This document shows, piece after piece, positions 5,975-44,963 of a stretch of DNA of 64,000 nucleotides. Origin of the DNA: Rhizophagus irregularis (Eukaryota); assembly GCF_026210795.1 (NCBI RefSeq), contig NC_089434.1:1674001-1738000 (forward strand). Reading direction: 5' to 3'. The stretch's first letter is position 1; each line of letters begins with the position of its first letter. The notes beneath the pieces are model-generated. The model had not been told where the DNA came from, made no database searches, and saw only the letters and a program-made list of their open reading frames with translations. A program made the position numbers and the translations under genes.

Positions 5975-6860
5975 TGTTATTTAAATGAATGAACATTGTA
6001 ATAACTGCGGACTAAAAAGGTTAATATTTCCTAAGACGGTAATAGACAATTGCTTATTGATTACCTTTTCAGATTTAATTTAATTACTTTTTCGACACAT
6101 AAATTCATTGATGAGAAAAAAATATTTTTTTTTTCACATTTCACAATTTTTTAAGATTATTAGGATTTTCACCGAAGTATTCCTTTAAATGTATGAGTAG
6201 ATCACAATTTGAATGAATGAACTATATCATTAAGCCTCAATATTTCTTAAGTCGGTAATGATCGATTATATTATGGCTGCGGGATTGTTTAAAATTAGTT
6301 ACTGAGGGCTCATCAATTATTTTTTCAAATCAAATTAATTTTAACTAAAAAAGAAATTTTTTTTTCATATTTCATTACAAATTACATATATGTGGTGCTA
6401 CTCTGCTCAATAATGACTAATGACTAATGATTACTGTATGGGTAGATCATGACCAAAAAAGAGTATTTATTCAAGTGGAGTACATATATAAAAATAAATA
6501 AATATTACTTGAATAACATTTGCGTTACAAAGTCCAAATAAAATAAATAGGGGACTTGTTTTCTATCCTATGATAATGCAGATACTTAAAAGCGGATGAG
6601 AGAATTGATAAGCGAAAAAAATCCATTAACAGATTCTTTTTCTTAATATATTCTACATTATTACAAACAAAAACATAAAATACACAACTCACAATAAATA
6701 ACACATTAACTGAAAAAATATTAAAGGTTGATTCCTGGTGCCACCCTAATTTACACTATAAATTTGTTTCGTTTAAATTTTTCCAATTTATATTTGCATT
6801 TATTTTAATAATAAAACAAAAAAAAAGTTTCATTTTAAACCTTTATAATAAAATTGCATT

Positions 6861-9379
6861 ATGTCTACCATCCGATATGAATTAATTTATGCAACAGCTA
6901 ATAGAGCATATTCGTTAATTGATTATAATATTCACATTGGCATGCACAAACAACATGAATTTCAAAAACAGTTTATTCTTGATGATAAACTTCTTACAGA
7001 TGATGAAAAAACTGAAGCAATAAATTACATAACTGAAACTTATGACCGAAATAAAATTCTTTATAATTCAGAAATAAAAAGAATTTGTGAAAATTGTAAT
7101 CAAGAATGTTTAGCTACATTATATTGTGAATATTGTGTTCGAAATTATTTAAAAGCAAATTTTAAAAATTGGACATCCGGAAATAATGATATTGATAATT
7201 TAATACAGAAATGTCAATTAGAAACACTTATGCCAAGTAAAGTAGTTGAATGGATTCCATATAATAATCTAAAAAATATTAAATATCTAACAAAAGGTGG
7301 ATTCTCTGAAATTTATACAGCAAATTGGATTGGTGGAAGATATGTAAAATGGAATTCTAATGAACAGCAATTAGAAAAATCTGGAACTATGACAGTAATA
7401 CTTAAAAAATTAGAAAATGTTGAAAATGCAAATCAAATTTGGTTTGAAGAGGTAAATGTGATAGGACCCCGAAATATACATAAAAGGGTCAGGTCAGAGT
7501 TTGAGTATAATGAGTCAAAAAAATCATGTAGATCATTCCTTTTATGGATAATCCCAGCCAAAATAATATTTCCTAATTTAGATAATGGCTGAAATTATCG
7601 TAATTCCGGCCCTGAAAGAATGCGTATTTTGGACCACTTCTGGACCTGACCTCTACATATATATTTCGGGTCCTAATGTGATTATATTTAAATTTTTTTT
7701 TATGAAATTTTACGGTTTTGTATTAACAATGGCATGTTATCATTTAGGCTAAATCACATTTAACTATAGGCAATAAACGTACTTCTATTGTCGATTGCTT
7801 TGGTTTAACACATGATATATCAAATGGAAATTATATGCTTGTAATAGGAAAAATGGATATGGATTTAAGAAAATATTTACAACAAAATTATATTCAACTT
7901 GCATGGAATGAAAAAATTAGAATTGCTTTTGGAATAATTAACGCACTTTATTTTATTCATCTTGAAAAGGTAATTCATAGAGATTTGCACTCCGGAAACA
8001 TATTATATTCACTATATAATGATAGATGGTATATTAGTGATCTTGGATTTTGTGGACCTGCTGATAAATCATCAAAAAGTATATATGGAAATCTTCCTTA
8101 CATAGCACCAGAAGTTATTAATGGAAAAGGATATACTTTTGCATCTGATATTTATAGTATTGCAATACTTATGTGGGAAATTTCATCTGGATATTCACCA
8201 TTTATTGATTATAAGCATGATGATTATAATCTTGCAATGGATATAATTAATGGTATGAGACCAGAAATTATGTCAGATATTCCTTTAGAATATAAAAATT
8301 TAATGGTACAATGTTGGAATGCTGACCCATTAAAAAGACTTGATTTACAATCTCTTCGGAAAAAAATAAGAGAAATTCATCTATCATATCAAAATATGCC
8401 AAATGAATTTTTCCAGTCAAAAGCAGTGAATAATTTTGAAATAAAAACTAGCATAAATTATATAAGCAGCAGATTATTTACAAGCAAAGTTCATCAATTT
8501 GAAAATTTACCCGAACCAAAGAATGCAACAGAAGGTATTATTTATTGAGTTTTTTGTTCTTGATTAAGATATGACGTTACTAATTTTTAATTTACTAAAT
8601 GATTATACTCGTTATAGAAGAACAAGAAGGTTAGCTTTTTTATTGTTATTTTATTAACTATTATAATAATTTATAACCTATTTTTCTTATTTTTTAAATA
8701 GCATTTCATAGTAAAACATATGATTTTAATATTCCTGATAATAGTAGGTATTTATTGAATATTTCATTTGATGAAATATTATTATTAATCAAATTTTCGT
8801 TTTATAGTTGAAGATTTTAATAGTTCAAACGATCAGAAGATTAATAAAACATCAAAAATAAATAGTATTTTTAAAGGTAATTTATTTATAAATTTTTGAA
8901 ATAAGGATACAAATTTATAAATTTATTTTAATTTTAGGTGGTAGTAAAAGATTATCTAAAGTATTTAAAAGATTACAATTAAGTTTAAAGAATGGTAAGT
9001 AATACTATTCTAGATCAGTAAATTTTAATTGTTTATTAAGCAATATTTATTATAATCTTATTTATTTATTTAAAATTTAGACATTCAAAATGATCATAAG
9101 AAAGAAACAATGCGACAAATGAAAAAATTAGGTAATGGTAAATAAAATTTTTTGTTACAAAAATTTCATTTTATTTTGCAATGTCAAATTAAAAACTTTT
9201 GTCCTATTATAGTAGATGATGACGAAATACATAATAATCCGAACCTTCATTCAGAAGATCAAGATAAATTTGAGATTCCTGATGGTTAGTTTCTTAATAT
9301 TTTTCTTAATATTGTTTAAATAATATCTTAATTACTAATTTATATTGTTTGTATATATTCTTTTTTAGATGGATTTTAA
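6861..9379 (+). CDS. TKL-group protein kinase, copy 1 (9 exons, ~564 aa)
   Basis: Exons 6861-7451, 7748-8534, 8618-8629, 8702-8743, 8808-8876, 8938-8994, 9081-9137, 9216-9284, 9369-9379 total 1695 nt, in frame. Motifs: TKGGFSEIY, VILKKL, HRDLHSGNIL, DLG, GNLPYIAPE, DIYS. N-terminal CxxC..CxxC. Confidence 0.92.
7463..7674. mobile_element. 212-bp MITE (AGGACCC termini, 8-bp TSD) in intron 1 of kinase copy 1
   Basis: TIR aggaccc(c)gaaatata / tatatttcgggtcct. TSD aatgtgat at 7455-7462 and 7675-7682. Near-identical inverted copy at 28791. Confidence 0.92.
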
Positions 9380-9596
9380 AAATTATATTTATAAACAAAC
9401 AATATTGAAAATTTTATTGGAATATTTAAACACTAGGACTAGAGTAGTAAAATATTTTACACATTTCTTAATTTGTAATTTAAATAATTTATTTATTTAT
9501 TATATATTATCAATAAATCTAAATCATTATTTTTTATTTATTAAATCAAAAAACGCGAAGAAAAATAATAATCTGTGAAAACAATAATGTGAAGAC

Positions 9597-16349: not shown

Positions 16350-16565
16350 CATTTCCTATTGTTCACATTAAAAGTTTCAATCATTAATTATTTTTTTTTC
16401 TCTGTATTTTGATTTTAAATTTATTAATAAGCCATAATATATATTTAAAAAAAAAATTATTTACATTACAAACTAAGGAATGCATAAAATATTTTGCTAC
16501 TCTAGCCTTAGTGTTTAAATAATTCAAAATAAAATATTCAATATTGTTTGTATATAATTATAATT

Positions 16566-19500
16566 TTAAAATCCATCTAAAAAAAAAATGTATATAAATA
16601 AACAACAATTAGTAATTAAAATATTATTATTTATAAAATATTAATATTAAGAAACTAACCATCAGGAATCTCAAATTCATCTTGTTCTTCCGAATGAAGG
16701 TTTGGATTATTATGTATTTCATCATCGTCTATAAAAATATAAAAAAGTACTTATTTGGGGACCATGGTGAACTCTTCCGGACGATCATTCAGACCAAAAA
16801 TTCACAGGAAGAAAAAAATTTAAAAAATACTTCATTTTCTAATAAAAACACTTATAAAAAGTCAAGGAAATGGAGTCATATCTACACCAGGATGAGTTTG
16901 ACTCAAAAATACTAAGGGAAGTCAGCACTTTGGTGAATAAAAATTTTAAAAACGCAGAGACAAGGTCGTCAGAAAATTTGCAAGGCGAGCTTGATAAAAT
17001 TTTTTTCAGAACGCTGCGAACACACAAAGTAATAGCAGATATAAGTGAAACTACGGGAATAAAGGGAGAGATAGTGGAACTACTCTTAAGAGGTTGCTTG
17101 AGATATGCTTATAGAGAATATGATAACGACGTTAAACAGATAGGAAAACAAAATACTAGGCTTCGTTCATGGCTGCGCCAGGCACAGCAAAAAAATCAGC
17201 CACATGAAGAAGTTCCAAAAAAAGTAATCGATAGCAATGTTAAAGCACCAACCAAAAGTCAGAACAAACAAAGAAAAAAGGGGAAAAAAAGAGAACGTGA
17301 AAAAGAAACGATTAGGGAAATTGCACTACATACACCGGACGATCAACAGCCGATCGTACAAAATTCAAGGGACGTATGTGCAACATCACGTGACATAATG
17401 TTTTATGATATACCAGCGCGTTATAGTGAAAGTGAAGTTATTTCAGCCATTAAAAATATAGGAAATGTTCATAGAATAAGGATTAAAAAGCACTATAAAT
17501 ACCAATCGGTAAGAGCTGAAATTAGTTTATTTGATGAATACGAAAGTGAGTTCGTGAGAGAAACGTGGAAAGTACAACTTTTATTTGGTAATAGTGAAAA
17601 GAAACAAACAACGATGCAAGTTCGTTGGTTTCCAGGACAAAGTACAGTCAAATCTATAAAAGAAAAATGTAAGTGGAAGGCATACAAAATAATTCGTTCA
17701 AATTATTATCAAGACGTAGCTAGAAAAAATTACTCTTTTGAGTATGGCAAAATGGCACGTTTTGGAAAAAACTTAGTATTTCTTGCATACTTTAAAGACA
17801 AAGATCAGTTGGACGCAGCTAAGGCATTGGACAAAGGAGCAGACGATACTTGGATTATTCATGGTAAGGGTTTGGGCAATCAACCGGTAGAGATCTCAAA
17901 AAGGGACTCACGTAGTGATTTGGTCAGCACTACGCCAAGAAATAATGGAAAAGTAACGCCTGCAACGAAAATACAACCTATAGCCAAGCCAACAATTATA
18001 GATAACGTTAGTACAGACGAGGTGGTTGATGTAGTAAATAAATATAGGAAGAATTTATTAGATGAATCTCCACAAAATATCGCATCAACATCGATAAAAG
18101 ACTACGCCTCACCAAAGAAAGTTGTAGACATAGTTTTGGATTTGAGAGCAGAAATCAACAAAGAGTTGTCACAGGATGAAAAAGATGATGAAAAGTGGAT
18201 TGACAGATGTAGAAATGGGTACGCTGTGCTAGTTACAGATTTAAAAGAAAGAAAAAAGAAGATGGATGAAGCAAGGTTGGAACGTGATACTTTACAAAAA
18301 GAATTGGAAGTAGTTCATACCAAAGTGAATGAAAATCAAAAAATACTGGATAAGATTAAAAGTGAAAAAGAGAAAAAAGCAAAATCCAATGAAAATACTA
18401 AACAGGTATCACCATTAGAATTACACGAGTATGAATCGATAAATGAAACATGTAGCAAGAGGCTAGATGAAAAAAAGAAGAATGAACCGATTCGTACTCC
18501 AGAATATATGGAGCGACTACAAGCGCAGCGTGATACTTACAGGAAGGCCTTCGAAAAAGCAAAAGAAGCAGCAGAACAACGGAAACGCCTAAGAAAGACA
18601 CAAGGTGACCGTGTAAAAGAGGAAGAAGGAATAGAAAGTGATAGTGATGAAGAAGAAGAAGATCAAGTGGTGGTAAGTACAGAAGCGCATAACAAAAGAG
18701 GAGGAAAACCAGGTAGTCGTGGACAAGGTAGAGGAGGCAGACGTAGATTAGTTAAAAAGAAATAGTTTCACGTATATAGAAATTGTATAGTGTAGATATT
18801 TTATTTTAATTTTTATATAGATAGTTTTTTTCTCGTAGTTGTGTAGTTATTTTAAGGGGATCGTGGGTTGACCGAGCGGTAGGCCGAAGCGCCCGGTATG
18901 GAGAGGTTGAATTAGTGCTTGCACTGGTTACTTCAAGTGATTCTCCAGTTTAATTTTGTAATTGGTGCGCTTTTTATAATTTTAATAAAGGAGTTTCGCA
19001 TTTACGCGAGTGAAAAAAAAAAAAAAAAAAAAAAAAAGTACTTATTTAATTAAAATATTGCAAAATTAAAAATTTATAATAAATATTCTACTTACCAATA
19101 ACTGGTTCTCTCACTTGTTGTATTGTTTCTTTTTTATAATCATTTTGAATTTCTATATCTTTTTAAATAAAATAAATAAAATTTTATTAAATATTGCATA
19201 AACAATAAACTAAGATTTAAATTTATTTTACTTACCATTCTTGGAATTTATTTTTAAAGTTTTAAATACTTTAGACAAACTTTTACTGCTGGCTATAATT
19301 GAGATAAATTTGTATTATTATTTCAAAAATTTTGGATATATAAATAAATTACCTTTAAAAATACTATTCATTTTTGATGTTTTATTAATCTTTTGATCGT
19401 TTGAATTATTAAAATCTTCAACTAAAAATGAAAATTTGGTTAATAAATATTTCATCAAATGAAATTTTAATAAATACTTACTATTGTCAGGAATATTAAA

Positions 19501-21148
19501 GTCATATGTTTTACTATGAAATGCTATTTAAAATGGTTAAAAAATTATTATAATAGTTAAGAAAATAGCAATAAAAAATATCAACCTTCTTGTCCTTCTA
19601 TAAACATTTAAATTAAAAAAGAAATTAGAAATGTCATGTCTTAATCAATAAACAAAAAAGTCTTATAAACAATACCTTCTGTTGCATTCTTTGGTTCAGG
19701 TAAATTTTCAAATTGATGAATTTTGCTTGTAAATAATTTGCTACTACTTGTATAATTTGTACTAGTTTTTGTTTCAAAATTACTTTTTGCTTTTGATTGA
19801 AATAATTCATTTGGCATATTTTGATATGATAAATGAATTTCTCTTATTTTATCATTAAAAGATACAATATCAAGTCTTTTTGATGGATTAGCATCCCAAC
19901 ATTGTTCCATTAAAGATTTATATTCTAAAGGAATTTCTGACATAATTTTTGGTCTCATACCATTAATTATATCCATTGCAAGATTATAATCATCATGCTT
20001 ATAATTAACAAATGGTGGTTGTCCAAATGAAATTTCCCACATAAGTATTGCAACACTATAAATATCAGATTTAAAAGTATATCCTTTTCCATTAATAACT
20101 TCTGGTGCTATGTAAGGAAGATTTCCATATATACATTTTGATGATTTATCAGCAGGTCCACAAAATCCAAGATCACTAATATACCATCTATCATTAAATT
20201 GTGAAAATAATATATTTCCAGAGTGCAAATCTCTATGAATTGCCTTCTCATCATGAATCCAATATACTGCACTAGTTATTTCAAAAGTAATTTTAATTCT
20301 TTCTTTCCATGTGAGTCGTTCATTATTTTGTTGTAAATAATTTCTTAAATCTGTATCCATTTTTATCATTACAAGCATATAACTTCCATTTGATGGATTT
20401 TGTGTCATTCCATAACATCGGACAATTTCTGTACATTCATTATTTATTGTTAAATGTGATTTAGCCTGTAAATATAAAAATTCTTTATTGTAAAACAAAC
20501 AATTGGCTAATTTATAAATACATTTAGAATACAAACCTCTTCAAACCAACTTTGATTTGCACTTTCAACATTTTCTAATTTTTTGAGTACTACTTTTGCT
20601 ACCAAGTTTTGCATTCCAGGTCTTTCAATTCTTTTTAATTGTTGTTTTTTAGAATCCCATTCATCATAATATCCATTAATCCAATCTGCAGTATAAATTT
20701 CGGAGAAACCACCTTTTGTAAGATATTTAATATTTATTAAATTATTATATGGAATCCATTCAATTATCACATCTGGCATAAGTGATTCCATTTGACATTT
20801 CTGTATTAAATTATCAATATCATCATTTCCAGATGTCCAATGTGAAAATTTTCCTTTTAAATAATTTCGAATACAATATTCACAATATAATGTAGCTAAA
20901 CATTCTTGATTGCAATTTTCACAAATTCTTTTTGTTCCCGTATTTTGAAGAATTTTATTTCGGTCGTAATCTTTAGTTATTTTTTTTATTGCTTCAGTTT
21001 TTTCATCATCTGTAAGAAGTTTATCAGCAAGAATTGTTTGTTTTCTAAATTCATGTCGTTTGTGAATATCAGTGTGAATATTATAATCAATTAACGAATA
21101 TGCTCTATTAACTGTTGCATTAACTAATTCATATCGAATGGTAGACAT
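16566..21148 (-). CDS. TKL-group protein kinase, copy 2 (inverted; 9 exons; intron 7 carries the retro-element)
   Basis: Exons 21148-20537, 20465-19676, 19597-19586, 19523-19482, 19421-19353, 19292-19236, 19152-19096, 16728-16660, 16576-16566. HRDLHSGNIL, DLG, APE. Ends PDDGF* like copy 1. Confidence 0.9.
16757..19031 (+). mobile_element. Non-LTR (polyA) retro-element carrying ORF1 only, with no RT
   Basis: Perfect 16-bp TSD aaaaaagtacttattt at 16741-16756 and 19032-19047. A-run at 19013-19037; AATAAA at 18984. Single intronless ORF. Absent from the homologous ~75-bp intron of the paralogs. Confidence 0.9.
16870..18765 (+). CDS. LINE ORF1p-like nucleic-acid-binding protein (RRM-like + coiled coil + acidic/RGG tail), 631 aa
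   Basis: Intact ORF, richer in GC than its flanks. RRM-like segment DIMFYDIPARYSESEVISAIKNIGNVHRIRIKK..VRAEI. K/E-rich heptads at about aa 455-580. C-terminal RGGKPGSRGQGRGGRRR. No RT (YxDD) or endonuclease motifs. Confidence 0.75.
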   Translation: MESYLHQDEFDSKILREVSTLVNKNFKNAETRSSENLQGELDKIFFRTLRTHKVIADISETTGIKGEIVELLLRGCLRYAYREYDNDVKQIGKQNTRLRSWLRQAQQKNQPHEEVPKKVIDSNVKAPTKSQNKQRKKGKKREREKETIREIALHTPDDQQPIVQNSRDVCATSRDIMFYDIPARYSESEVISAIKNIGNVHRIRIKKHYKYQSVRAEISLFDEYESEFVRETWKVQLLFGNSEKKQTTMQVRWFPGQSTVKSIKEKCKWKAYKIIRSNYYQDVARKNYSFEYGKMARFGKNLVFLAYFKDKDQLDAAKALDKGADDTWIIHGKGLGNQPVEISKRDSRSDLVSTTPRNNGKVTPATKIQPIAKPTIIDNVSTDEVVDVVNKYRKNLLDESPQNIASTSIKDYASPKKVVDIVLDLRAEINKELSQDEKDDEKWIDRCRNGYAVLVTDLKERKKKMDEARLERDTLQKELEVVHTKVNENQKILDKIKSEKEKKAKSNENTKQVSPLELHEYESINETCSKRLDEKKKNEPIRTPEYMERLQAQRDTYRKAFEKAKEAAEQRKRLRKTQGDRVKEEEGIESDSDEEEEDQVVVSTEAHNKRGGKPGSRGQGRGGRRRLVKKK

Positions 21149-22921
21149 AATGCAATTTAATTACAAAAGTTTAAAAAGAAAAATTTTTTTATTGGTATAA
21201 AAAAAAAAATATGAACTGGGAAAGGAATTTTTGACAACGAAATTTAAGTTTCAAAAAATTCCCGAATAGTGTAACCATAAATTCGAATTTTTTGTATGAT
21301 CAGCAGAATAATGTCATGTGACAATTACACAATTTTAAAAGATAAACAAAATAAACTATTTTTAGATATGCTTGTTGATCATCCCTATAAATAAATATTT
21401 ATTTTAAAAAAAAAACTAAAAATAGAAGATAGCGTGAATACTAAAGTAGGAAGTTACCGGATTGTGATGACAAATTTAAAAATAACATTGACAGTAGTAG
21501 TGATTATTGAATTAGTGATACATGAAATTACATAGAAAAATTTCTTGTAAAAAAAAGCTTTAAAATTAGTAAATAAAATAAAAATAATTTATATTATATG
21601 AAGCAGAATAGATGAATACTTTCGTATTATTTGAAATTATAATATTTCTACATTACTATCAAGTTTTATTGAAATTCTCACTCTATAATGAGTTAAGAAA
21701 AGCATCAAACAAAATAAATTAAGAATCTCATACTAACCTTTTTGAGTAAATCAAGTCTTAATTGTAAAATATACTAACATTATAACATTAAACTCAATTT
21801 CTTATAAGCCTGATTTCTATAAACAACTTAGCCTGTTTTAAACCAAAACTAGTACTATATTGAACTTATTAATAAATTAAATATTTTTCGTAACATTATA
21901 AATTGCAATTCTTTTTTTTTTATAATTCATACATAATTACTAGGAAACAGTAACTGTTGAAGCATCCGAAGCATTATAATCATCGTGATCAATTACTTAT
22001 CACAAGAAATTGAAATTGTCTACAAAAAATATGTATTGCTAAAGTTAAAAATAATGTATTGCTAAAAAATGTATAGTTAAAAGATGCAGTTTTAGATAAA
22101 AATATTTATTACCACTTTAAAAAGCCAATGATATTTATTATTATAATTTATAATTCGGTACAAAAATTAATATGTAACATTTATATTTTGTTTCTACACA
22201 AGCGTTACGTCTGATTCTAAAATCCCATTGTAATTTATTGTTTTTGTTACTACGTTATTACTGTAATCGTTTCATAAACTTTATTGGCCATACACGTAGC
22301 GCGACGGACAGACATTGCATGAGTAGAATGGAAAGTTCTTCGATAACGCTTTGGACAATAAACTCAGAAACAGGAAATTGTATACTAGTACAACAGTATA
22401 AGCAAATTTCATATGATTGCATTTCATTTATAATGACTTAATAGTAATTGTTCATTAACTCGCTAATTAATTCGTTATTTTTGCATGACAGGCATTCTAC
22501 GATTTCTGTAAAATTAAATTTAAACGCTTGTCAGCGACTGGTTTGATCAGGTTTAAACCAAATTTACTGTCAAGATAATTATTTATAAAATAATAATAAA
22601 ATGAAATAATCTTTATTACAAATATTTAATGACTTTATGTTCATCCACCAATTAATCAACTATATCATTTGGCAATAAACTAGGATAACGGAAGGTCCGA
22701 AGTAGTGATTAAATTACGAAATCTGTCATCTAAGGAACATAGGTTCAGTTTCTAGGATGAGCGGAATAATTGGGAATTATACGGACATCTGGACATTATG
22801 TCATCAAGCGCATAAGTATATAGTCCTTCGTTACACTTCAGACTAACAAGGTGTTACTATAAAAAATTAATTTGTAATTTAAAATGATACATTTGATTTA
22901 TGAAAATATTTTATGCTCTTA

Positions 22922-23322
22922 GTTAATTATCGCTGTTTTCAAATTAGTGGGACCCCTGTATGTCACCCCTAAGGAAATCGATTTCCAAAAATTTGCGAAA
23001 ACCCAGAATTTTTCTGAATAACTATGTAGGAAAAGATCAATTATTAGCGATTTCCAGAGGAAATCTTAGGAAATTCTCAATTGTAAAGGTAGTTTGCTTA
23101 TAAAAAAGTGTTTATGTTACACAAAGTTTTATCACTCACTTATAAGCAAACTATTTGAATAATTGAGAATTTCCTGAGATTTCCTCCAGAAATCACTAGC
23201 AATCGGACCTTTACTACAAAGTTATTCAGAAAAATTCTGGGGTTTCCACATTTGCGAAAACTGATTTCCTTAGTGGGTGACATGCAGGGGGTCCCACTAA
23301 TTTGAAAACAGCGATAAATAAC
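22922..23322. mobile_element. ~400-bp foldback (whole-length inverted repeat) MITE
   Basis: ttatcgctgttttcaaattagtgggacccc..tagtttgcttataa is mirrored by ttataagcaaacta..ggggtcccactaatttgaaaacagcgataa, with a short central loop. Confidence 0.88.
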
Positions 23323-23365
23323 AAAAAAAAAAAAAAAAGTTTAGTTTATCATTACAGGATTTAAG

Positions 23366-23787
23366 TAGGGTTGAATCGGTCCGGTCTGGTCCCAAAAAGA
23401 CTGGTCTTTCAATCTGGACCGGACCGATTTAAATTTAAGAAATGATTTTAAGACCTCTAAATTATGCTAAAACATTAAAGAACGTTTCGAAACGTTTTTT
23501 AACATGTAATTTAACAAATAAAAAACGTTTTTCGCAAATGTTTTTAATTATTTTAACAAACAACGTTGCGAAAACGTTTTTATTAAGTAATTTACGTTTT
23601 GCAACGTTTTTTATTAAAGCAATTTAATTAAAAAAAACGTTTTCGCACGTTTTTTTAATTATTTTATTAATAGGAAACGTTGCAAAAACGTTTTTTATTA
23701 ATAATTTCACGTATTCGCACGTTTTTTTAATAAAAAACGTTGCGAAAACGTTAAAAACTGAACCGTTTTGGCAAAAACCGTGCCCTA
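23366..23787. mobile_element. hAT-like MITE with internal aaaacgttttcgca repeats
   Basis: TAGGG / CCCTA termini, cggtcc/ggaccg subterminal motifs, and internal repeats shared with 61059-61596. No clear TSD. Confidence 0.6.
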
Positions 23788-25065: not shown

Positions 25066-25217
25066 GTTACATAACATGATCAACAAATTTATTATGTTAC
25101 ACTTCGGAATTTTTTGAAAAAAAAAAAATTCATTTTTTCAATTTAAATATTTTAACAATAAAATAAACAAAAAAAATTTTTCCTTTTAAAAACTTTTTAT
25201 AATAAAATTTTTATATT

Positions 25218-27433
25218 ATGTCTACTATTATTCGAAGAGGATTAATTAATGAAACAGTTAGTAGAGCATGTTCGTTAACTGATTATAATATTCGTACTGA
25301 TATGCATAAACAATTTGAATTTCGTAAACAATTCATTCTTGATGATAAAATTCTTACAGATGATGAAAAAACTTTAGCAATAAGAATAATAAATGAGTTT
25401 TATGATCAAAATAAAGTTCTTTCAAATTCTGGAATAAAAAGAATTTGTGAAAATTGTGATCAAGAATGTTTAGCAACATTATATTGTGAATTTTGTGTTC
25501 AAAATTTTTTAAAATTAAATTTTAAAAATTGGACATCAGGAAATTATGATATTGATAATTTAATACAAAAATGTCAATTAGAAACACTTATGCCAAGTAA
25601 AGTAATTGAATGGATTTCATATAAAAATTTAAGGGATATTAAATATTTAACAAAAGGTGGATTTTCTGAAATATATACTGCACGTTGGATTAATGGATAT
25701 TATAAACAATGGGATTCTAAAAATCTACAATTAAAAAGATTTGGAACTATAAGAGTAATACTTAAAAGGTTAGAAAATGTTGAAAGTGCAAGTCAAAGTT
25801 GGTATGAGGAGGTATATATATATTTTTTAATTTATTTTATAAAATTGAATCATTCTTTATATATTAAACGATAAAATTCTTAAATTTTTATAGGCTAAAT
25901 CGCATTTAACTATAAACAATAAACATACTACCATTGTTAAATGCTTTGGTTTAACAAGAGATATACCAAATGGAAATTATATGCTTGTAATGATGGAAAT
26001 GGATATGGATTTAAGAAAATATTTACAAATTAATAATCAACTTACGTGGAAACAAAAAATTAGAATTGCTTTTGAAATAATTGATTCACTTTTTTTCATT
26101 CATCTTGAAAAAGCAATTCATAGAGATTTGCACTCTGGAAACATATTATATTCAAAATATAATGATCGTTGGTTTATTAGTGATCTCGGATTTTGTGGAC
26201 CCACTGATAAATCATCGAAAAGTATATATGGAAATCTTCCATATATAGCACCAGAAGTTATTAATGGAAAAGGATATACTTTTAAATCTGATATTTATAG
26301 TGTTGCAATACTTATGTGGGAAATCTCAACTGGATATTCACCATTTATTGATTATGAGCATAATGATTATGAGCTTGCGATGAATATAATTGATGGCATG
26401 AGACCAGAAATTGCGTCAGACACTCCTTTAGAATATAAAAGTTTAATGAAGCAATGTTGGGATGATAATCCATCAAATAGACTTGATATTCAATCTCTTC
26501 GGGAAAAAATGAATGAAATTCATCTATTATATCAAAATATGCCAAATGAAGTTTTTCAGGCAAAAAAACTAAATAATATTGAAATAAAAATTAGTGATAC
26601 AAGTAGCAGATTATTTACAAGTAAAATTTATCAATTTGACAATTTACTTGATCGAAAAAATACAACAGAAGGTACTACTTTTTATATTTTGTTAGAGGAA
26701 CAAGAAGTTAAGATTATCATTTTATCAAATTATTATAACAACTTTTAAACGACTTTTCTTTTATAAATAGCAATTTATAGTAAAGTATATGACTTTAGTA
26801 TTCCTGATAATAGTAAGTATTATTAAAAAGGTTTCATTTATTGTTAATATTTATTGAACGAATTTCATTTTTTAGTTGATGATTTTAATAATTCAAGCAA
26901 TCTAAGGGTTAATAAAACATCAAGAATAAGTAGTAATTTTAAAGGTAATTTATTTATATATATATTTATTTAATTATCCCTTAAATAATAATGGCACAAT
27001 TATATCTCAATTTTAGGCATTAATAAAGGATTATCTAAGGTATTTAAACCGTTAAAGATAAGTTCAAAGGATGGTAAGTAATATGATATTAAATATTAAT
27101 TGTTCATTAAGCAATATTGATTGATCAATTGTTTAATAATATAGACATTCGAAATGATCATAAAAAAGTAATAATGCGACGAACGAAAGGATCAGTTAAT
27201 GGTGAATAAAATTTTTTGACATAAATTTTTTAATTTTGCGATATTTAAATTAAATATTTTTGTCCTTTTATAGATGATGACGAAATACATAATAATCCAA
27301 ACCTTCATTCAGAAGATCAAGATGAATTTGAAATTCCCGAGGGTTAGTTTCTTAATATTAATATTGTATAAATAATATCTTAATTACTAATTTATATTAT
27401 TTATATGTATTTTTTTTTTTAGATGGATTTTAA
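25218..27433 (+). CDS. TKL-group protein kinase, copy 3
   Basis: Exon 1 at 25218-25811, exon 2 at 25894-26671, short 3' exons ending ATGGATTTTAA at 27423-27433. HRDLHSGNIL, DLG, APE. The micro-exon region is degenerate. Confidence 0.9.
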
Positions 27434-27900
27434 AATTATATTTATAAGTAAATAATATTGAAAATTTTATTTAAACACTAAGGTTAGAATAGTAAAATAT
27501 TTTACACGATTTCTTAGTTTGTAATTTAAATAATTTTTTTTTAATATTATATCTTATCAATAAATCTGAATCAATATTTTTATATATTAAATCGAAAAAA
27601 AAACAAAGAAAAAAAGTCAATGAGAAAGGGACGATAAGAAATATCGTGGTAAAGATTAAAATAAGAATATTCCAGAAAAAAATAAAAATATTAGTAATAA
27701 TTAAAACCAAGTTATTATAAATTAGTAAAGAATTTTTAAAAAACAACGAAATATTCACTTATAATCTTTTAAATTCTTTAGTTTTAAAGAATTTCCAATT
27801 CTCATAAATCTCTAAATATTTATTATCATTCAAACATTTTATACAGTATTTTGACTTGTTTCTATAATAATGTAACGAACTTTTTCTAATAATAAATAAT

Positions 27901-29003: not shown

Positions 29004-29469
29004 GACCTAAGAATAATCATCCCTTATAATATTATCATAATTTTTCAAGAGTTTTTTTTTGCATTCATATATATATAATTATCAAATTAAAATAATTCAA
29101 AGTAATCATAACGACAACTCAGCTGCGATAGTGCCGCAGTTGTGAGGTCACGTGTGCACGAGTAATTGTTTGCATAATAGGTATTTATTTTGTACCTTAG
29201 TTTTGTCATTTATTTCTAGAAATGTAAAAAATATTTTTTTATTACGTTAAACATGTCTAAAAATAGTTTATTTTTGTTGTTTATAATTGTTTGTGTAATT
29301 GCCACATGAACATTAGATCATATGGTTACACTTTTTAGAGTTTAGTAACTTTCAGTTCATCGTCAAAAATAATTTCTTTTTTTCACTTTTTTTCAATTCA
29401 TATTTATTTTTTTTTTTAAACAAAAAAAAATTTTTCATTTTTTAAAATTTTAGCAACAAAATTGCAATT

Positions 29470-31576
29470 ATGTCTAACATTCGATATGAATTAGTTAATT
29501 CAACAGTAAATAGAATAATTTTATTAACAGATTTAAAAATTTATAATAACATACATAAATATTATGAATTTCGAAAACAAACAATTCTTACTGATAAACT
29601 TCTTACAGATGACGAAAAAATTTATGCAATAAGATTATTAACTAAAAATTATGATCGAGATAAAGTTATTACTAATTCAGGAACGAAAAGAATTTGTGAA
29701 AATTGTAAGAAAAAATGTTTAGCTACATTATATTGTGAATATTGTATTCAAAATTATTTAAAAACAAATTTTAAAAATTGGACATCCGGAAATAATGATA
29801 TTGATGATTTAATACAGAAATGTCAAATTAAAACTATTGGACCAAATTATATAGTTGAATGGATTCCATATAATAATTTAGAAAATATTAAATATCTAAC
29901 AAAAGGTGGATTCTCCGAAATTTATACTGCTGATTGGATTAATAGCTTTTATAAAGAGTGGGATTCTAAAAATCAACAATTAAAAAGATTTGGAAGTGTA
30001 AAAGTAGTACTTAAAAAATTAGAGAATGTTGAAAGTGCAAATCAAAGATGGTTTGAGGAGGTTTGTATTTTAAATTTATTTATAAAGTTAACCAACTCTT
30101 TATTTACAATAAAAGTTTTATATTTTTATAGGCTAGATTACATTTAATTATAAGTAGTAAGCGTGGTAGCATTGTCCGTTGTTTTGGTTTAACACAAGAT
30201 CTATTAAATGGAAATTACATGCTTGTAATGTTAAAGATGGATACGGATTTAAGAAAATATTTACAACAAAATTATAATCAACTTACATGGAAAGAAAAGA
30301 TTAAAATTGTTTATGAAATATCTATTGCACTTAGTAATATTTATAAAGAGAAAGCAATTCATAAAGATTTGCATTCCGGAAACATATTATATTCTAAATC
30401 AAATGATCGTTGGGTTATTAGTGATCTTGGATTTTGTGGACCTGCTGATAAATCATCAAAAAGTATATATGGAAATCTTCCATATTTAGCACCAGAAGTT
30501 ATTAAAGGAAATGGATATACTTTTAAATCTGATATTTACAGTATTGCAATACTTATGTGGGAAATTTCATCTGGATATTCGCCGTTTATTGATTATGAGC
30601 ATGATGATTATGAACTTGCAATGAATATAATTAATGGTATGAGACCAGAAATTATGTCAGATATTCCTTTAGAATATAAAAATTTAATGGTACAATGTTG
30701 GGATGCTGATCCATTAAAAAGACCCGATACTATTACACTTGAAGAGCAGATAAGAAAAATTCATTTATCATATCGGAATATGCCAAATGAGTTGTTTCAG
30801 TCAAAGACAATAAATAATTTTGAAATAAAAACCAGTACAAATTATACAAGTAGAACATTATTTACGAGTAAAATTTATCAATTTGACAATCTACCTGAAC
30901 AAAAAATTGCAACGAAAGGTATTACTTTATATATTGATGATTTTTTTTCATTATTACTAATTTTTTTTTTAATTTAAATAATTGTTTACTGTCAATTTAT
31001 TATTTATTCTGATTTTTTCTTGGTTTTTTTTTAAAAAAAAATAGCACTTTATACTAGTAAAGTATATGATCTTAGAATTCCTGATAATAGTAAGTATTTA
31101 TTAAAATTTTATTTAATGAAATATTTATGTATTAAACAAACTTTTCATTTTTAGTTGATGATTTTAACGAACAGAAAATTAAAAGAACATCAAAAATAAG
31201 TAGTATTTTTAAAGGTAATATATTTTATATATATTTAATTATCTTCAAATAATAATAATACAAATAAATCTCAATTTTAGTCAGTAATAAAAGCTTATCT
31301 AAGGTATTTGAAACGTTAAAGATAAGTTCGAACAATTGTAAGTAATATAATTCTAAAATTTAATTGTTTTGTTAAGCAAGATTAATTTATTTTATTTAAA
31401 ATATAGACATTCAAAATGATCATGAAAAAGAAACAATACAACAAATGAAAGAACCAGTTAATGGTAAGTGAAACTTTTGCTATAAAATTTTTAATTTTGC
31501 AACGTTTAAATATTTTTTTTCTTTTATAGATGATGACGAAATATATAATAATTCAAACCTTCATTCAAAAGATTAA
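29470..31576 (+). CDS. TKL-group protein kinase, copy 4 (HKD catalytic loop; slightly truncated C-tail)
   Basis: Exon 1 at 29470-30060, exon 2 at 30132-30918, next exon at 31045-31089. HKDLHSGNIL. A CAA>TAA change at 31574-31576 is followed by a ~140-bp insertion splitting the penultimate exon. Confidence 0.85.
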
Positions 31577-32139
31577 GATGAATCGGTCAGTTAAAAAAAA
31601 ATTGATTTTGATCTCAAAGAATAATAATAACGATGATTTTTGGTGATGATTTTTGATTCCAAGGATATGATCCTTTTAAATAAAAAATCAAATAATTAAT
31701 TAAATTACAAAACATTAACTTTCGAAATTCCTGATGGCTAGTTTCAATAGTATTAATGTTGTATAAATAATATCATAATTACTAATCTCTATTATTTATA
31801 TGTATTGATTTTAAAATTTAATTATATACTGAATATTTTATTTTGTTGAAGCTAGAGTAGTAAAATATTTTATGCGTTCCTTAATTTGTAAATTTAAATA
31901 ATTTTTTTTTCAATATAGCTTATTAATAAATTTAAATCAATATTTTTTTATTTATTAAATCTATCGGTTGTCTGTTAAAAAATGGATATTCAGATATCTG
32001 AATTGAATGGATATCTGAATATAGTTTGGATCTGTTATACAAATCAGTACCAAATTTGATTTTAGACATATATTGTCCTTCGCTTCACTCCAGAGTCACT
32101 CCAGAGTCACTCCAGACAATTATGATTCATATTTAATAT

Positions 32140-33914: not shown

Positions 33915-34913
33915 TTTCATATATTGTATATGAAGTAGTGTATTAATAATTTTTATTTTTAAATATATTTTATTGAGATTGATCCTGAATATATATCATT
34001 GATTCAAATATGATACAAAATTAGTTTTTCGAATGTAAAATAATTATTCATGTAGTTAATTTTCTTTTGTATGAGACTATGAGTTTTTCGAAGATGTGGG
34101 TGACAAATTTAATAGCACTTCTCAATGAACTTCACTATTTCATATTTAAAGTTTTGCAACCAATCTTATCGATCAGGACAAGATAAAATAAGTTTAATAC
34201 TTTAAATGAAATAATCTTTAATATAAAAAAAGTAAAATATGTAATAGTTTTATGGATTTTTTATAAATAGGAACACTATTATTAAAATTTTTTAACTATT
34301 TTATTGACTAATTATAGCGTAAGAAACTTCAATAAATTTGTTAGAAAAATTTTCATTTCAAATAATTTACAGAGAAATGAGAGAATTCAATTATTCCGCT
34401 AACATAATATACTGTACGTATATATTTTTGGTTTACTGATTTTAGGTCTTTTTGTTTACAAAAAAAAAATTCAGCATGTACTATATGAAACAAATCATAA
34501 TCACAAAGTATTACAATATCATCAATATTTTCTATTATTTTTAATTCCTTCATCAAATTTAATAAATTATAGTTTTTATAATTTTACACTTAGAATTCTC
34601 GGTAAACTCTAATTTACATTCATGTGTATTTTTAGTTACAGTATTTATTTATAAAATGTAAAAATATTTATTGTAACGATAAACATGTCTAAAAATAGTT
34701 TATCGTGTTTATTTTTAAATTTGTTTGTATAACTGTTACATAACATTCAAATCGTACTAAAATTCAAATTTATGTTACACTATAAATTGTTTCTGAATTT
34801 TGAAATTAAATTTTTTTTCTTTTTAAAAAAAAAAATTTTTCGTTTTTCCAATTTATATTTGTATTTATTTAAAAAAAAGTTTTCATTTTAAACCTTTATA
34901 ATAAAATTGCATT

Positions 34914-37177
34914 ATGTCTACCATCCGATACGAATTAGTTTATGCAACAGCTAATAGAGCATATTCGTTAATTGATTATAATATTTACACTGATGCTCAC
35001 AAACAATATGAATTTCTAAAACGAACAATTCTTGCCGATAAACAACTTACGGATGATGAAAAAACTTTTGCAATAAAAATAACAGATGAGAAATATGACC
35101 GAGATAAAATTCTTTTTAATTCAGGAACAAAAAGAATTTGTGAAAATTGTAAACAAGAATGTTTAGCAACATTATATTGTGAATATTGTGTTCGAAATTA
35201 TTTAAAAGCAAATTTTAAAAATTGGACATCTGGAAATAATGATATTGATAATTTAATACAGAAATGTCAATTGGAAACAACTAGACCAAATGTGATAATT
35301 GAATGGATTTCATATAGTAATTTACAAAATATTAAATATCTTACAAAAGGAGGATTCTCCGAAATTTATACTGCAGATTGGATTGATGGAGAATATGAAG
35401 AATGGGATTCCGAAAAACAACAATTAAGAAGATTTGGAACTACAGAAATAGTACTTAAAAAATTAGAAAATGTTGAAAATGCAAATCATAGTTGGTTTGA
35501 AGAGGTTTGTATTCTAAATGTATTTATAAAATTAGCCAATTTTTTGTTTTACAATAAAAGTTTTTATATTTACAGGCTAAATCACATTTAACTATAAATA
35601 ATAAATGGCCAGCCATTGTCAGATGTTATGGAATGACACAAAATCCATCAAATGAAAATTATATGCTTGTAATGATGAAAATGGATATGGATTTAAGAAA
35701 ATATTTACAACAAAATAATGAACGACTCACATGGAAAGAAAGAATTAGAATTACTTTTGAAATTACTAGTGCACTATATTGGATTCATAAAGAGAAGGCA
35801 ATTCATAGAGATTTACATCCAGGAAATATATTGTTTTCAAAATTTAATAATGGTTGGCTTATTAGTGATCTTGGATTTTGTGGACCTGTTGATAAATCAT
35901 CAGAAAGTATATATGGAAATCTTCCATATATAGCACCAGAAGTTATTAGTGGAAAAGGATATACTTTTGCATCTGATATTTATAGCATTGCAATACTTAT
36001 GTGGGAATTTTCATCTGGATATTCACCATTTATTGATTATAAGCATGATGATTATAATCTTGCAATGGATATAATTAATGGTATGAGACCAGAAATTATA
36101 TCAGATATTCCTTTAGAATATAAAAATTTAATGGTACAATGTTGGGATGCTGATCCATTAAAAAGACTTGATATACAATCTCTTCGGGAAAAAATGAATG
36201 AAATTCATCTATTATATCAAAATATGCCAAATGAAGTTTTTCAGGCAAAAACACTCAATAATATTGAAATAAAAACTAGCACAAATTATATAAGCAGCAG
36301 CAAAGTTCATCAATTTAAAAATTTACCCGAACCAAAAAATGCAACAGAAGGTACTATTATTTGCTAAGTTTTTTGTTTGATATGATGACGTTACTAATTT
36401 TTTTTTTTAATTTAAATGATTATACACATTATAGAAGAACAAGAAGGTTAGTTTTTTTATTGTTATTTTATTAACTATTGTAATAATTTATAACCTATTT
36501 TTCTTATTTTTAAATAGCATTTCATAGCAAAACATATGATTTTAGTATTCCTGATAATAGTAGGTATTTATTGAGATTTTCATTTGATGAAATATTTATT
36601 AATCAAATTTTCGTTTTTTAGTTGAAGATTTTAATAATTCAAGCGATCAGAAGATTAATAAAACATCAAAAATAAATAGTATTTTTAAAGATAATTTATT
36701 TATATATTCAAATTTTTGAAATAATGATACAAATTTATCTCGATTGTAGGTGGTAGTAAAAGATTATCTAAAGTATTTAAAAGGTTACAAATAAGTTCAA
36801 AGAATGGTAAGTAATACTATTCTAAGTTTTAATTGTTTATTAAGCAATATTTATTATAATCTTACTTATTTATTTATTTTATTTCATAAAAAAGAAACAA
36901 TGCAACAAATGAAAGGATCAGTTGATGGCAAGTAAAAATTTTTTGCTATAAATTTTCAATTTATTTTGCAATGTTTAAATCAAAAACCTTTATCCTTTTA
37001 TAGATGATAACGAAATACATAATAATCCAAACCTTCATTCAGAAGATCAAGATGAATTTGAGATTCCCGATGGTTAATTTCTTTAATATTTTTCTATTTT
37101 TCTTAATATCGTATAAATAATATCTTAATTACTTATTTATATTATTTATATGTATTCTTTTTTTAGATGGATTTTAA
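34914..37177 (+). CDS. TKL-group protein kinase, copy 5 (kinase domain intact, tail splice sites damaged)
   Basis: Exon 1 at 34914-35504, exon 2 at 35576-36350, micro-exon at 36435-36446, exon at 36518-36559. HRDLHPGNIL. Donor GT>AT at 36691; exon-7 acceptor deleted near 36880. Confidence 0.85.
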
Positions 37178-38118
37178 AATAACAAACGATATTGGAAATT
37201 TTATTTGAATTATTTCAACACTAAGACTAGAGTAGTAAAATATTTTGCGCGTTTCTTAATTTGTAATTTAAATAATTTTTTTTTATATATTATATATTAT
37301 CAATACTTAAACTTTTTTAAAAACATAAAAATTTTGTGAAAGAAAAAATTTTACTGCCTTTTCTGTCTCATCACTGATGATTTTATATTGTTTTATTGAC
37401 AGTTATTATTCCAAAGTTGTGATAACCGCAGTCAAAAGCCGCAGTTTAAAGTCGTTGGCATACAGTATAATCTTAACATCATTTTACAAATCTAGATTGG
37501 ATTGAATTTTTTCATGGAAAAGTACATATCTTCACAATAAATTATGATTTTATTGTAAATTTAATTGTGGTTATATAATGTTGGATGCAAATGTAAAATA
37601 ACCGATAAAATTTATATTACTTCATTGCTAGACTTTAACTTTTGGAATTATTTGCTTTCAAGATTTTTGATCATCAAAATCACGAACCATCGAGATATTG
37701 TTGATTAAACAAGAGGAGTAAAAGAGTAAAAACTTGGATATTTTTAAGATATTATAATATTTACCATAACTAGTTAAGCTGGTAATAAACTTTTTATAAT
37801 CTGGAAACATTTAGTATAATTTTTCCGGACCCGTGGTAAAATCCCAATGATCCATAATACTGATAGTAAAATAAATAATCTATAAATTAAAATTTTAATT
37901 ATTCATGATATGTATATATTCTTCATTGATATTGTCATATCATAAAGTCATATGATGCTGATAATCAAAAATCAAATAGTTAGAATTACTAATCAATTAT
38001 CATAATTACTGTAATCAAATTTTATTTAGCTCAAAAAAAAAAAAAAAAAATTTTTCAACATTTTGTTTTCATTCAAACAAAAAAAAAAAATTATAAATTT
38101 TAACCAATTATATTAATA

Positions 38119-43600: not shown

Positions 43601-44963
43601 CCGACATGCAATTAGAGAAGGAAAATATTTATACAGATAATATTTTATTATTTTATTAATCATAAGTATCATGATGCTACGTATTATTAGAAATATGTTA
43701 CCATAATTGAACTTTTTTAAAAAAAATTAAAATTTTTTTTCATTTTATTGTATGAATCAAAAAGTATATGAGCGTAGAAAAAAAAATATTCATTAAAGAA
43801 ATATTGTATATAGAATACAGTGTGTATCTTGAGGAGTAATAGAATCTAAAGATTTTTCTTTTATTAAAAGTATATGATACAATACTTCTATTATATTATG
43901 TTTTTTATTGTTTTACTAATTACAAAATATATAATTAGTCATAATAAAGTAATACGTTCATAAATAAATAACACTAATAAAGAAGCGGAGAAAAATATGT
44001 TAAGTTTTATGCAAAAGCATTACAAAAGTAATTATATGGAATTAAATGAACTATTCAATTTATTAATATCAAAGTAAACGATCTTGCTGATGTTAATAAA
44101 TAAAAAGCTATTGATTAATCCAGTCAAACTTTTTTTTTTGTAATTTGGATTTAAATGTCGCAGTTATTATTAGAAGTTTTCATTTATCAAATCTAAAATG
44201 AAAGTTACAGTATATATGTAAGACAATTAAAAAATAGTATATACAGTATATAAATCATTGTTTTTTTTTGTGGTTAATGAGCTATTTAGGATTACTTATT
44301 TTAATAATAAAAATATTAGAATATTATTTTTATTGTTTCTTGCTTGACTGAAAAAAATTTCAGTTGGCATTTTATATTCCTAAGATGATTCATATTTTAT
44401 AAACTAGAATATGCGATTTGCCAGGGGACTTCGTCCCCCAAACATAACATTTATAATTAAAAAAATTTTTTGATATAAATAAATTGAATTGTATGTAAAA
44501 TATTACCAAATAATAAAATTTTATTATAATTAAACCTATAAAAAATCATGTTTTTAATAAGGTTTTATACAATTTTTTCTTAAAAATAATGTTTCTAATC
44601 TATATAGGGATACGGAAAAATGCACAATTCCATATCACAAAAATGTATCATTTTGCATGATTTGACCATAATTTATGCCGAATTTATATTGATTTGATCA
44701 CAGAAATTACATAATTTAAGCATAGAATTTACACGATTTGGTTAATGAATTTACTGCTTAAATTACAATTATTAATATTAGTTGCATTTATATGAATTTG
44801 ATTTTAATAATATTTTACTAAATTATTAAATCAAATATAAAATCCTTAGTATCATGTGATTATAATTAGCCAATAATATAAATTAATTCTTATTATTTAA
44901 AATAATGACGTAAGTTGTAATAAGTGTTTTAAAGTTAATACAGCTACAAAAAAATAAAATTTT

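What the first reader, a model, noticed from the sequence alone, without database searches (positions are those of the whole stretch)
16757..19031. Young ORF1-only retrotransposon (HAL1-like 'half-LINE') in a fungal kinase intron
Seen: a 2.27-kb insert with a perfect 16-bp TSD, a 25-A run and a TAT/AAAAAA target. It has a defined G-rich 5' start, a ~110-nt 5' UTR, one intact 631-aa ORF and a ~250-nt 3' UTR, leaving no room for reverse transcriptase. Known: TSD, polyA and a T/A-rich nick site are hallmarks of target-primed reverse transcription by APE-type LINEs. Ordinary LINE truncation removes the 5' part (ORF1) and keeps ORF2 ends, the opposite of this case. ORF1-only non-autonomous elements (HAL1) are described in animals. 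Inference: a protein-coding non-autonomous family that supplies its own RNA chaperone and borrows RT/endonuclease from a partner LINE. I do not know of a description in these fungi.
Basis: partly seen in the sequence, partly recalled or inferred. Interest (0 to 1): 0.9.

Follow-up and report, generated by a model that had tools for sequence, protein, structure and literature searches.

The report
Fungal half-LINE retrotransposon in kinase intron
This 2.3-kb insert in a kinase gene's intron of a root-symbiont fungus bears the marks of a reverse-transcribed insertion, carries one intact gene for a predicted RNA-binding protein but no copying enzyme, and likely belongs to a family of jumping genes that would borrow that enzyme from complete elements, a way of life known from animals.

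Summary
Observation confirmed: unique 16-bp target-site duplication, A25 tail, 113-nt 5' UTR, intact 631-aa ORF, 247-nt 3' UTR, no RT or endonuclease. Removing it restores a 76-nt intron found in four paralogous kinase genes. The ORF belongs to a dispersed, mostly broken family named almost only from Rhizophagus (31 hits, 33-96% identity; 8 locus tags in one assembly). Its predicted fold is two tandem RRMs plus long helices, without zinc knuckle; RRM1 is under purifying selection (pN/pS about 0.13, one pair). A second copy likely ends at the same poly(A) site. Not shown: other copies' ends and TSDs, a partner LINE, or homology to a proven LINE ORF1p; no genome was held. New here: RNA contigs show the host kinase transcript splicing into the element's antisense strand. 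Best reading: an ORF1-only non-autonomous retrotransposon family (0.65), working like HAL1 but not a member of it. The scan noted such elements before in animal DNA only; ten paper searches found no fungal case.

The parts
16741..16756 (+). left copy of the 16-bp target-site duplication
   Evidence: only two copies in the window
16757..16869 (+). 5' UTR, 113 nt, starts with four G; holds an upstream ATG at 16764 opening a 19-codon frame out of phase with the main ORF; presumed internal promoter (inferred)
   Evidence: a contig in runs X2 and X11 shares the first part up to 16800 and then differs
16870..18765 (+). intact 631-aa ORF: N-terminal helices, two RRMs, long helices, acidic patch, RGG-rich basic tail
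17389..17634 (+). predicted RRM 1 (residues 174-255)
   Evidence: (pLDDT mostly above 90 in the core model); 9 of 14 differences to another copy are silent
17674..17865 (+). predicted RRM 2 (residues 269-332)
   Evidence: RRM and ACT-type folds, Z 6-8.5
18112..18387 (+). predicted long helix, likely coiled coil (residues 415-506)
18766..19012 (+). 3' UTR, 247 nt, with AATAAA at 18984-18989, 23 nt before the tail
   Evidence: gene model P0010 reads into the same UTR at 97% identity over 18834-18950
19013..19037 (+). poly(A) tail, 25 A (the last 6 shared with the right TSD)
19032..19047 (+). right copy of the target-site duplication
16729..19095 (-). host intron near the 3' end of the kinase coding sequence; 2367 nt with the element, 76 nt without; the element sits in its pyrimidine tract
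18970..19095 (-). new 126-nt intron: host donor spliced to a cryptic acceptor on the antisense strand of the element's 3' UTR
   Evidence: joint 18969-19096, CT..AC, in 3 of 4 runs laid (X2, X11, X16)
17978..18112 (-). 135-nt intron spliced out of antisense RNA inside the ORF
   Evidence: joint 17975-18111, CT..AC, in 2 of 4 runs (X2, X11)
19096..21148 (-). upstream exons of the host protein kinase gene, one of at least five paralogues in the window

Best explanation
The insert is an intact, RT-less copy of a multi-copy Rhizophagus family that likely moves as an ORF1-only non-autonomous retrotransposon: it would be transcribed and polyadenylated as a 2.3-kb unit, make its own predicted tandem-RRM protein to coat that RNA, and borrow endonuclease and reverse transcriptase from a complete LINE. 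Shown: TSD, A tail, T-rich target, restored empty intron, single ORF, dispersed family with many broken members, purifying selection on RRM1, and splicing of the host kinase RNA into the antisense strand. Predicted: two RRMs and a coiled coil. Inferred: internal promoter, RNA binding in cis, descent from a LINE ORF1p, trans-mobilisation by an APE-type LINE of the same genome (LINE/L1-Tx1, L1-R1, I, CR1-Zenon and RTE families are reported for R. irregularis in PMC11075540). The antisense intronic position diverts host splicing: the kinase would lose its last short acidic tail (six new residues, then a stop) and the transcript runs antisense through the element.
For: Insertion marks. No RT/EN; no longer fused relative among 7981 and 7976 candidates scored (weak); 0 of 41 distant hits with RT/EN Pfam. 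Family: 31 hits, 29 named R. irregularis, 1 R. diaphanus, 1 unnamed; only 4 of 31 cover the whole protein without a large gap; four 633-634-aa and one 571-aa copy, 91-96% identical, on five contigs of different length; 8 OCT59 locus tags on four contig lengths; 630- and 687-aa relatives at about 27% identity keep the same layout. Same 3' end: in run X1 a variant with 10 listed substitutions and 1 insertion at 18913-18992 continues 33 letters into the A run; P0010 reads into the same UTR. Unit size: Logan contigs of 2317 and 2323 nt carry P0014 and P0059, whose 2-residue difference equals the 6-nt length difference. Selection: pS 0.24, pN 0.03, binomial p 2e-4. Fold.
Against: No DNA around any other copy could be read (no genome; six collection scans by protein and two by pattern found nothing), so shared termini, separate TSDs and absence of ORF2 behind other copies are not shown. 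No link to a proven ORF1p: no Pfam ORF1 family in 1 of 1 query, 0 of 41 distant hits or 0 of 29 alignment members; Foldseek and VIA-align list ordinary cellular RRM proteins; Atlas hits to CCHC/RRM Mucoromycota clusters score only 0.76-0.83. The protein lacks the CCHC knuckle of type I ORF1p (0 of 220 stored proteins). AATAAA 23 nt before the tail fits ordinary mRNA cleavage as well as a retroelement. No partner LINE found. The RNA shown for this copy is spliced on the antisense strand; sense transcription is not shown (contigs carry no strand). The selection test rests on one pair and 203 nt; in the linker 8 of 12 changed codons were replacements (15 of 89 differences seen). No 3' UTR hairpin beats shuffles (z -0.7 to -1.4).
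Confidence: 0.65

Rival explanations
1. Same way of life, different origin: a self-spreading retrogene family whose tandem-RRM protein comes from a host RNA-binding gene, not from a LINE ORF1p, and whose copies are mobilised again and again by LINE enzymes.
For: All structural matches are cellular tandem-RRM proteins; no ORF1 Pfam family matches; architecture fits neither ORF1 type I nor II as defined in PMC4120745; canonical AATAAA before the tail.
Against: No cellular RRM protein is a sequence relative: the profile hits looked up are named only from Rhizophagus or are unnamed, and the best PDB sequence hit is E 0.019. ORF1 proteins evolve fast and often lack matches across lineages (passage in PMC4641428). 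Related shorter proteins (HH probability 99.7%) are themselves multi-copy in R. clarus.
Confidence: 0.15
2. The ORF is ORF1 of an ordinary two-ORF LINE, and this copy arose from a transcript cut short at an internal poly(A) signal.
For: AATAAA 23 nt before the tail; flanks of other copies were not read; loose ends at 18860 and 18970 show other sequences that share only the last part of the UTR.
Against: The 247 nt after the stop hold no ORF2 start; a second variant likely enters the same A run; none of the 6 loose ends listed for X1 (13 not shown) is a read-through at the tail; gene models that run past the stop (P0010, P0063, P0089, P0108) show no endonuclease-like sequence by eye; contigs of about 2.3 kb for a sister subfamily.
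Confidence: 0.1
3. A one-off processed retrocopy of a conventional, fast-evolving host gene family that multiplied by DNA-level duplication.
For: Full mRNA-like anatomy (UTRs, AATAAA, tail); purifying selection on RRM1 fits host genes too; this fungus has many expanded gene families (section 5 of PMC11075540).
Against: 27 of 31 relatives are partial or gapped gene models; copies are dispersed; two gene models join pieces of the ORF to kinase-like sequence, as for insertions (P0052, P0179); a second copy likely has the same tail.
Confidence: 0.1

Closest known systems
HAL1 (half-L1) of mammals (passages in PMC5753468, and PMC3627910; Bao and Jurka 2010 not held)
   Same: One ORF1-like gene, no ORF2, poly(A) tail and TSD, coding capacity kept over long times, presumed trans use of ORF2p.
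   Different: HAL1 is derived from L1 and has the type II ORF1p (coiled coil, one RRM, CTD). Here two RRMs are predicted with the long helix behind them, no Transposase_22 match, the parent clade is unknown and the host is a fungus.
HeT-A (Jockey clade) and Ag-Sponge (CR1 clade), the other 'ORF1-present' non-autonomous LINEs (passage in PMC5786205)
   Same: Protein-coding non-autonomous LINE lifestyle that arose independently in several clades.
   Different: Both are from insects; HeT-A is telomere-bound (abstract listing of PMC13534243; its gag-type knuckles are recalled), whereas this family is dispersed and has no CCHC.
Type I LINE ORF1p (I, Jockey, R1, Tad1, plant L1, L2; passages in PMC4120745; Candida Zorro3, PMC3956500)
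   Same: One or two RRMs in the first ORF.
   Different: Type I has CCHC knuckles right after the RRMs; none in 220 stored proteins.
EKA family of barley powdery mildew (passages in PMC4641428)
   Same: A fungal multi-copy family of LINE ORF1-derived open frames.
   Different: Described as degenerate or truncated copies of the two-ORF LINEs Kryze and Satine, some co-opted by the host; the passages read do not describe a self-contained unit with its own tail and TSD.

Membership tests
Insertion by target-primed reverse transcription | Short target-site duplication of variable length | tested here: met
   16 bp, exact, unique in the window
Insertion by target-primed reverse transcription | 3' poly(A) tail next to the right TSD | tested here: met
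   A25 at 19013-19037
Insertion by target-primed reverse transcription | T-rich nick site and a restorable empty site | tested here: met
   Six T then A on the nicked strand (the TTTT/A preference of L1-type endonucleases is recalled); empty 76-nt intron matches four paralogues
ORF1-present non-autonomous LINEs (HAL1, HeT-A, Ag-Sponge class) | One ORF, no RT or endonuclease in the unit | tested here: met
ORF1-present non-autonomous LINEs (HAL1, HeT-A, Ag-Sponge class) | Multi-copy, dispersed family | tested here: met
   At protein level: 31 hits; 8 locus tags of one assembly; five 91-96% identical copies on different contigs
ORF1-present non-autonomous LINEs (HAL1, HeT-A, Ag-Sponge class) | Copies share both ends and have their own TSDs | tested here: inconclusive
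   One variant likely enters the same A run; one contig joins other sequence at 16765, one at 16830; 2317/2323-nt contigs; no flanks read
ORF1-present non-autonomous LINEs (HAL1, HeT-A, Ag-Sponge class) | The protein is homologous to ORF1p of an autonomous LINE | tested here: inconclusive
   Tandem RRM fold predicted; no Pfam, PDB or fused ORF1-ORF2 link; Atlas leads under 0.9
ORF1-present non-autonomous LINEs (HAL1, HeT-A, Ag-Sponge class) | An autonomous partner that shares the 3' end or the target preference | not testable with these tools
   No genome held; loose ends at 18860 and 18970 are 30-letter leads only
ORF1-present non-autonomous LINEs (HAL1, HeT-A, Ag-Sponge class) | Coding capacity kept by selection | tested here: met
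   RRM1: 9 of 14 differences silent, pN/pS about 0.13, one pair; RRM pair 94-96% identical where linkers are 59-73%
HAL1 in the strict sense (L1-derived) | Type II ORF1p: coiled coil, single RRM, CTD (Transposase_22) | tested here: not met
   Both models give two RRM folds with the longest helix downstream; no such Pfam hit at E up to 1
Type I LINE ORF1p | CCHC zinc knuckle right after the RRM(s) | tested here: not met
   0 of 220 stored proteins match a CCHC pattern; none in the element's six frames
Processed retrocopy of a host gene | An intron-containing parent gene elsewhere | not testable with these tools
   No DNA of other copies could be fetched

The most novel reading that the evidence does not exclude
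An old, self-standing lineage of protein-coding non-autonomous retroelements in mycorrhizal fungi, diversified to about 27% identity while keeping one ~630-aa ORF of a new architecture (tandem RRM, no knuckle, C-terminal coiled coil, RGG tail) that did not come from any described LINE ORF1 type; and this copy, by capturing the host kinase's splice donor in antisense, supplies long antisense RNA against its own family, a natural silencing trap.
Probability: 0.15. Interest if true: 0.75.

Novelty: new variant of a known kind. Interest (0 to 1): 0.52.

Why it matters
If true, the ORF1-only way of life, described for three animal LINE clades, arose again in fungi with a different RNA-binding protein, which supports the view that an ORF1p made in cis is worth keeping even when the enzyme is borrowed. 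It would also explain part of the unclassified repeats and 'hypothetical genes' of Rhizophagus: the curated library of PMC11075540 kept only sequences with a transposition domain (section 5), so such a family would be left out by design while gene callers list its copies as host genes. The intact copy is a ready substrate for a trans-mobilisation assay, and its splice capture shows a direct effect on one member of the expanded kinase family.

Tried and rejected
No genome was held. Scans for DNA around relatives found nothing: metagenome contigs with two alignments, viral contigs with two alignments and two DNA patterns, prokaryote genomes with two alignments; these collections probably hold little fungal DNA, so the blanks say nothing. 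Searches for longer fused ORF1-ORF2 forms gave none (weak by the tool's own note). L1 ORF1p was not among the rows listed by Foldseek or VIA-align; absence from a list excludes nothing. The BFVD search gave only generic RRM matches. Pfam SLATT_4 (E 0.0012, below cut-off) is a coiled-coil artefact. Rfam: three sub-threshold snoRNA hits, rejected. 3' and 5' UTR folds do not beat shuffles. RNA contigs of X2 and X11 begin at 16762 and 16764, near the 5' end, but a second sequence family shares this head, so a graph branch explains it as well as a start site; not used. The joint 16729-19099 that skips the whole intron has one letter unlike this locus and is taken as a paralogue's. No empty-site joint among 15 joints listed, 19 not shown. 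Five small cluster members were dropped: P0044-46 and P0068 are unrelated by sequence, P0047 was not fetched. A homotrimer prediction was not run, so oligomer state is open. Searches of earlier findings by sequence, place and fungal words gave nothing.

Full report
Observation. A 16-bp duplication (16741-16756, 19032-19047) occurs only twice in the window and frames a 2256-nt body plus an A25 run. The body has a 113-nt 5' UTR starting with four G, one ORF of 631 codons (16870-18765) and a 247-nt 3' UTR with AATAAA 23 nt before the tail. No other frame on either strand exceeds 117 codons between stops, and none of six frames holds an RT, endonuclease or CCHC motif. Of 13 A runs of 12 or more in the window only this one has a 16-letter upstream match.

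Site. The insert is antisense in an intron (16729-19095, minus strand) of a protein kinase gene. Removing the element and one TSD leaves 76 nt; that empty stretch aligns across the junction with four paralogous kinase genes of the window at 80-81% identity. So this is a true insertion, later than the kinase duplications, in the pyrimidine tract just before the acceptor. The nicked strand reads six T then A, like the L1-type endonuclease preference (recalled). The organism is not given; 29 of 31 protein relatives are named Rhizophagus irregularis, one R. diaphanus, one is unnamed, so an arbuscular mycorrhizal fungus is inferred.

Family. The word-based search gave 31 proteins at 33-96% identity among 7994 candidates scored; only 4 of 31 span the whole query without a large gap, the pattern of gene models drawn over decayed copies. 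One cluster holds four 633-634-aa and one 571-aa protein, 91-96% identical, on five contigs of different length. Eight OCT59 locus tags on four contig lengths appear among the names. Four small cluster members proved unrelated and one was not fetched; they were dropped. The profile search found 185 proteins at E up to 0.001 (150 listed). A tree of the RRM region of 42 chosen rows gives two well-supported sister subfamilies (99/97 and 95/91), more distant 630- and 687-aa proteins of the same layout at about 27% identity, and a clade of shorter proteins with a basic tail; the latter match the family at HH probability 99.7% over 165 columns. Of 10 distant proteins looked up, 5 are named from Rhizophagus and 5 are JGI records without organism. 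No longer fused form was found (weak), 0 of 41 distant hits carry an RT or endonuclease Pfam domain, and 0 of 220 stored proteins have a CCHC knuckle.

Protein. AlphaFold2 predicts N-terminal helices (low confidence), two beta-alpha-beta domains at 174-255 and 269-332, a long helix at 415-506 and a disordered acidic and RGG-rich tail (mean pLDDT 54); with a deeper alignment the core reaches pLDDT above 90 for 134 residues. Foldseek lists tandem-RRM proteins (Sex-lethal, HuD, PABP, DBHS; best E 3e-5); VIA-align gives RRM and ACT folds at Z 6-8.5, which is middling. No tool tied the protein to a proven LINE ORF1p; Atlas neighbours are Mucoromycota clusters, some with RRM or CCHC, all under 0.9. 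By the types given in PMC4120745 (passages) it fits neither type I nor type II. The RRM pair is 94-96% identical between this copy and four sister copies where the linkers are 59-73%. A contig of another copy in runs X2 and X11 differs at 14 of 203 nt in RRM1, 9 of them silent: pN/pS about 0.13, binomial p 2e-4; this is one pair, and in the linker 8 of 12 changed codons were replacements (15 of 89 differences seen).

Ends of other copies. No genome was held and eight collection scans were blank, so flanks of other copies were not read. Indirect signs: in the DNA-like run X1 a second copy covers 17924-18718 with 89 differences, and a variant with 10 listed substitutions and one insertion at 18913-18992 goes on 33 letters, into the A run (71 difference rows were not shown, so 'same tail' is likely, not certain). 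Gene model P0010 reads into the same 3' UTR. Two Logan contigs of 2317 and 2323 nt carry the sister proteins P0014 and P0059, and their 6-nt difference equals the 2-residue difference, which suggests fixed ends about one element apart. Loose ends show other sequences that share only the head up to 16800 or only the tail from 18860 or 18970; these may be other subfamilies, truncated copies or the partner. No read-through at the tail was among the 6 loose ends listed (13 hidden).

Effect on the host gene. Runs X2, X11 and X16 behave as RNA, with many CT..AC joints at kinase introns. All three, from three coded studies, join the kinase donor (19096) to a cryptic acceptor at 18970-18971 in the antisense 3' UTR; X1 does not. 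X2 and X11 also remove 135 nt inside the antisense ORF, in X11 on a 900-nt contig with no difference from this copy. The diverted transcript would replace the kinase's short acidic tail by six residues and a stop and carry long antisense RNA of the element. The joint that skips the whole intron has one letter unlike this locus and is probably a paralogue's; 19 joints were not shown, so normal splicing here is not excluded. Sense transcription of this copy is not shown. The fungus has 40 AGO-like genes (passage in PMC11075540), so a silencing role of this antisense RNA is conceivable but untested.

Mechanism. Most likely (0.65) the unit is transcribed from an internal promoter, cleaved at its AATAAA, translated to a tandem-RRM protein that packages the RNA, and inserted at T-rich sites by the endonuclease and RT of a complete LINE. 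Shown: insertion marks, lack of enzyme, family, selection on RRM1, splice capture. Predicted: fold. Inferred: promoter, RNA binding, ORF1p ancestry, partner. Rivals: a self-spreading retrogene family of host origin (0.15), a prematurely polyadenylated two-ORF LINE (0.10), a one-off retrocopy (0.10).

Known kinds and literature. ORF1-present non-autonomous LINEs are HeT-A, HAL1 and Ag-Sponge (passage in PMC5786205); HAL1 encodes only ORF1p, arose several times and kept coding capacity for tens of millions of years (passages in PMC5753468, and PMC3627910). Bao and Jurka 2010 was not held. The fungal EKA family is ORF1-derived but described as truncated or degenerate copies of two-ORF LINEs (passages in PMC4641428). 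The two AMF transposon papers do not contain the words ORF1 or non-autonomous in their main text (PMC11075540: passages, section 5 and one supplement file searched; PMC11952901: passages only), and the first kept only sequences with a transposition domain. Ten searches (listings only, apart from the papers named) showed no fungal ORF1-only family; subscription journals, Repbase, Dfam, the GitHub library and the supplements of PMC11952901 were not seen and may hold one. Earlier notes of this scan describe such elements in animal genomes only, unchecked here.

Verdict. Real insertion, real family, plausible and probably correct lifestyle, but the two defining links (ORF1p ancestry with a partner LINE; shared ends across copies) remain open. 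It works like HAL1 and is not a HAL1. New variant of a known kind; interest 0.52.

Noticed in passing
window 22919-23325: About 407-bp imperfect palindrome (80% self-complementary) ending at an A16 run; looks like a MITE or foldback element.
   Followed up: no
window 44961-46265 and 51674-54332: Two tandem arrays with a period of about 172 bp, 89-96% alike, inside a larger duplication.
   Followed up: no
window 23476-23757 and about 61164-61486: AT-rich, partly palindromic repeat rich in AAACGTTTT, present twice.
   Followed up: no
window 38506-40602 (+): Stop-free stretch of 699 codons with no Pfam match at E up to 0.01.
   Followed up: partly
window about 6800-9500, 25100-27600, 29400-31900, 34600-37300 (+) and 16400-21400 (-): Cluster of at least five paralogous kinase genes, 77-86% alike; the one with the insert is inverted relative to the others.
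   Followed up: partly
proteins P0052 and P0179: Gene models that join kinase-like sequence to pieces of this family's ORF, hinting at other insertions in or beside kinase genes, in sense orientation.
   Followed up: no
window 16757-16800, runs X2 and X11: A contig shares the element's head and then goes on for 255 or more letters with unrelated sequence; summed depth in this bin is three to four times that of the ORF. Perhaps another family with the same promoter head.
   Followed up: partly
proteins P0130, P0184, P0207, P0212, P0214, P0219: A related clade of 290-550-aa tandem-RRM proteins with a basic tail and a short terminal helix, multi-copy in R. clarus; best candidates for the ORF1 of a complete partner LINE, context unread.
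   Followed up: partly
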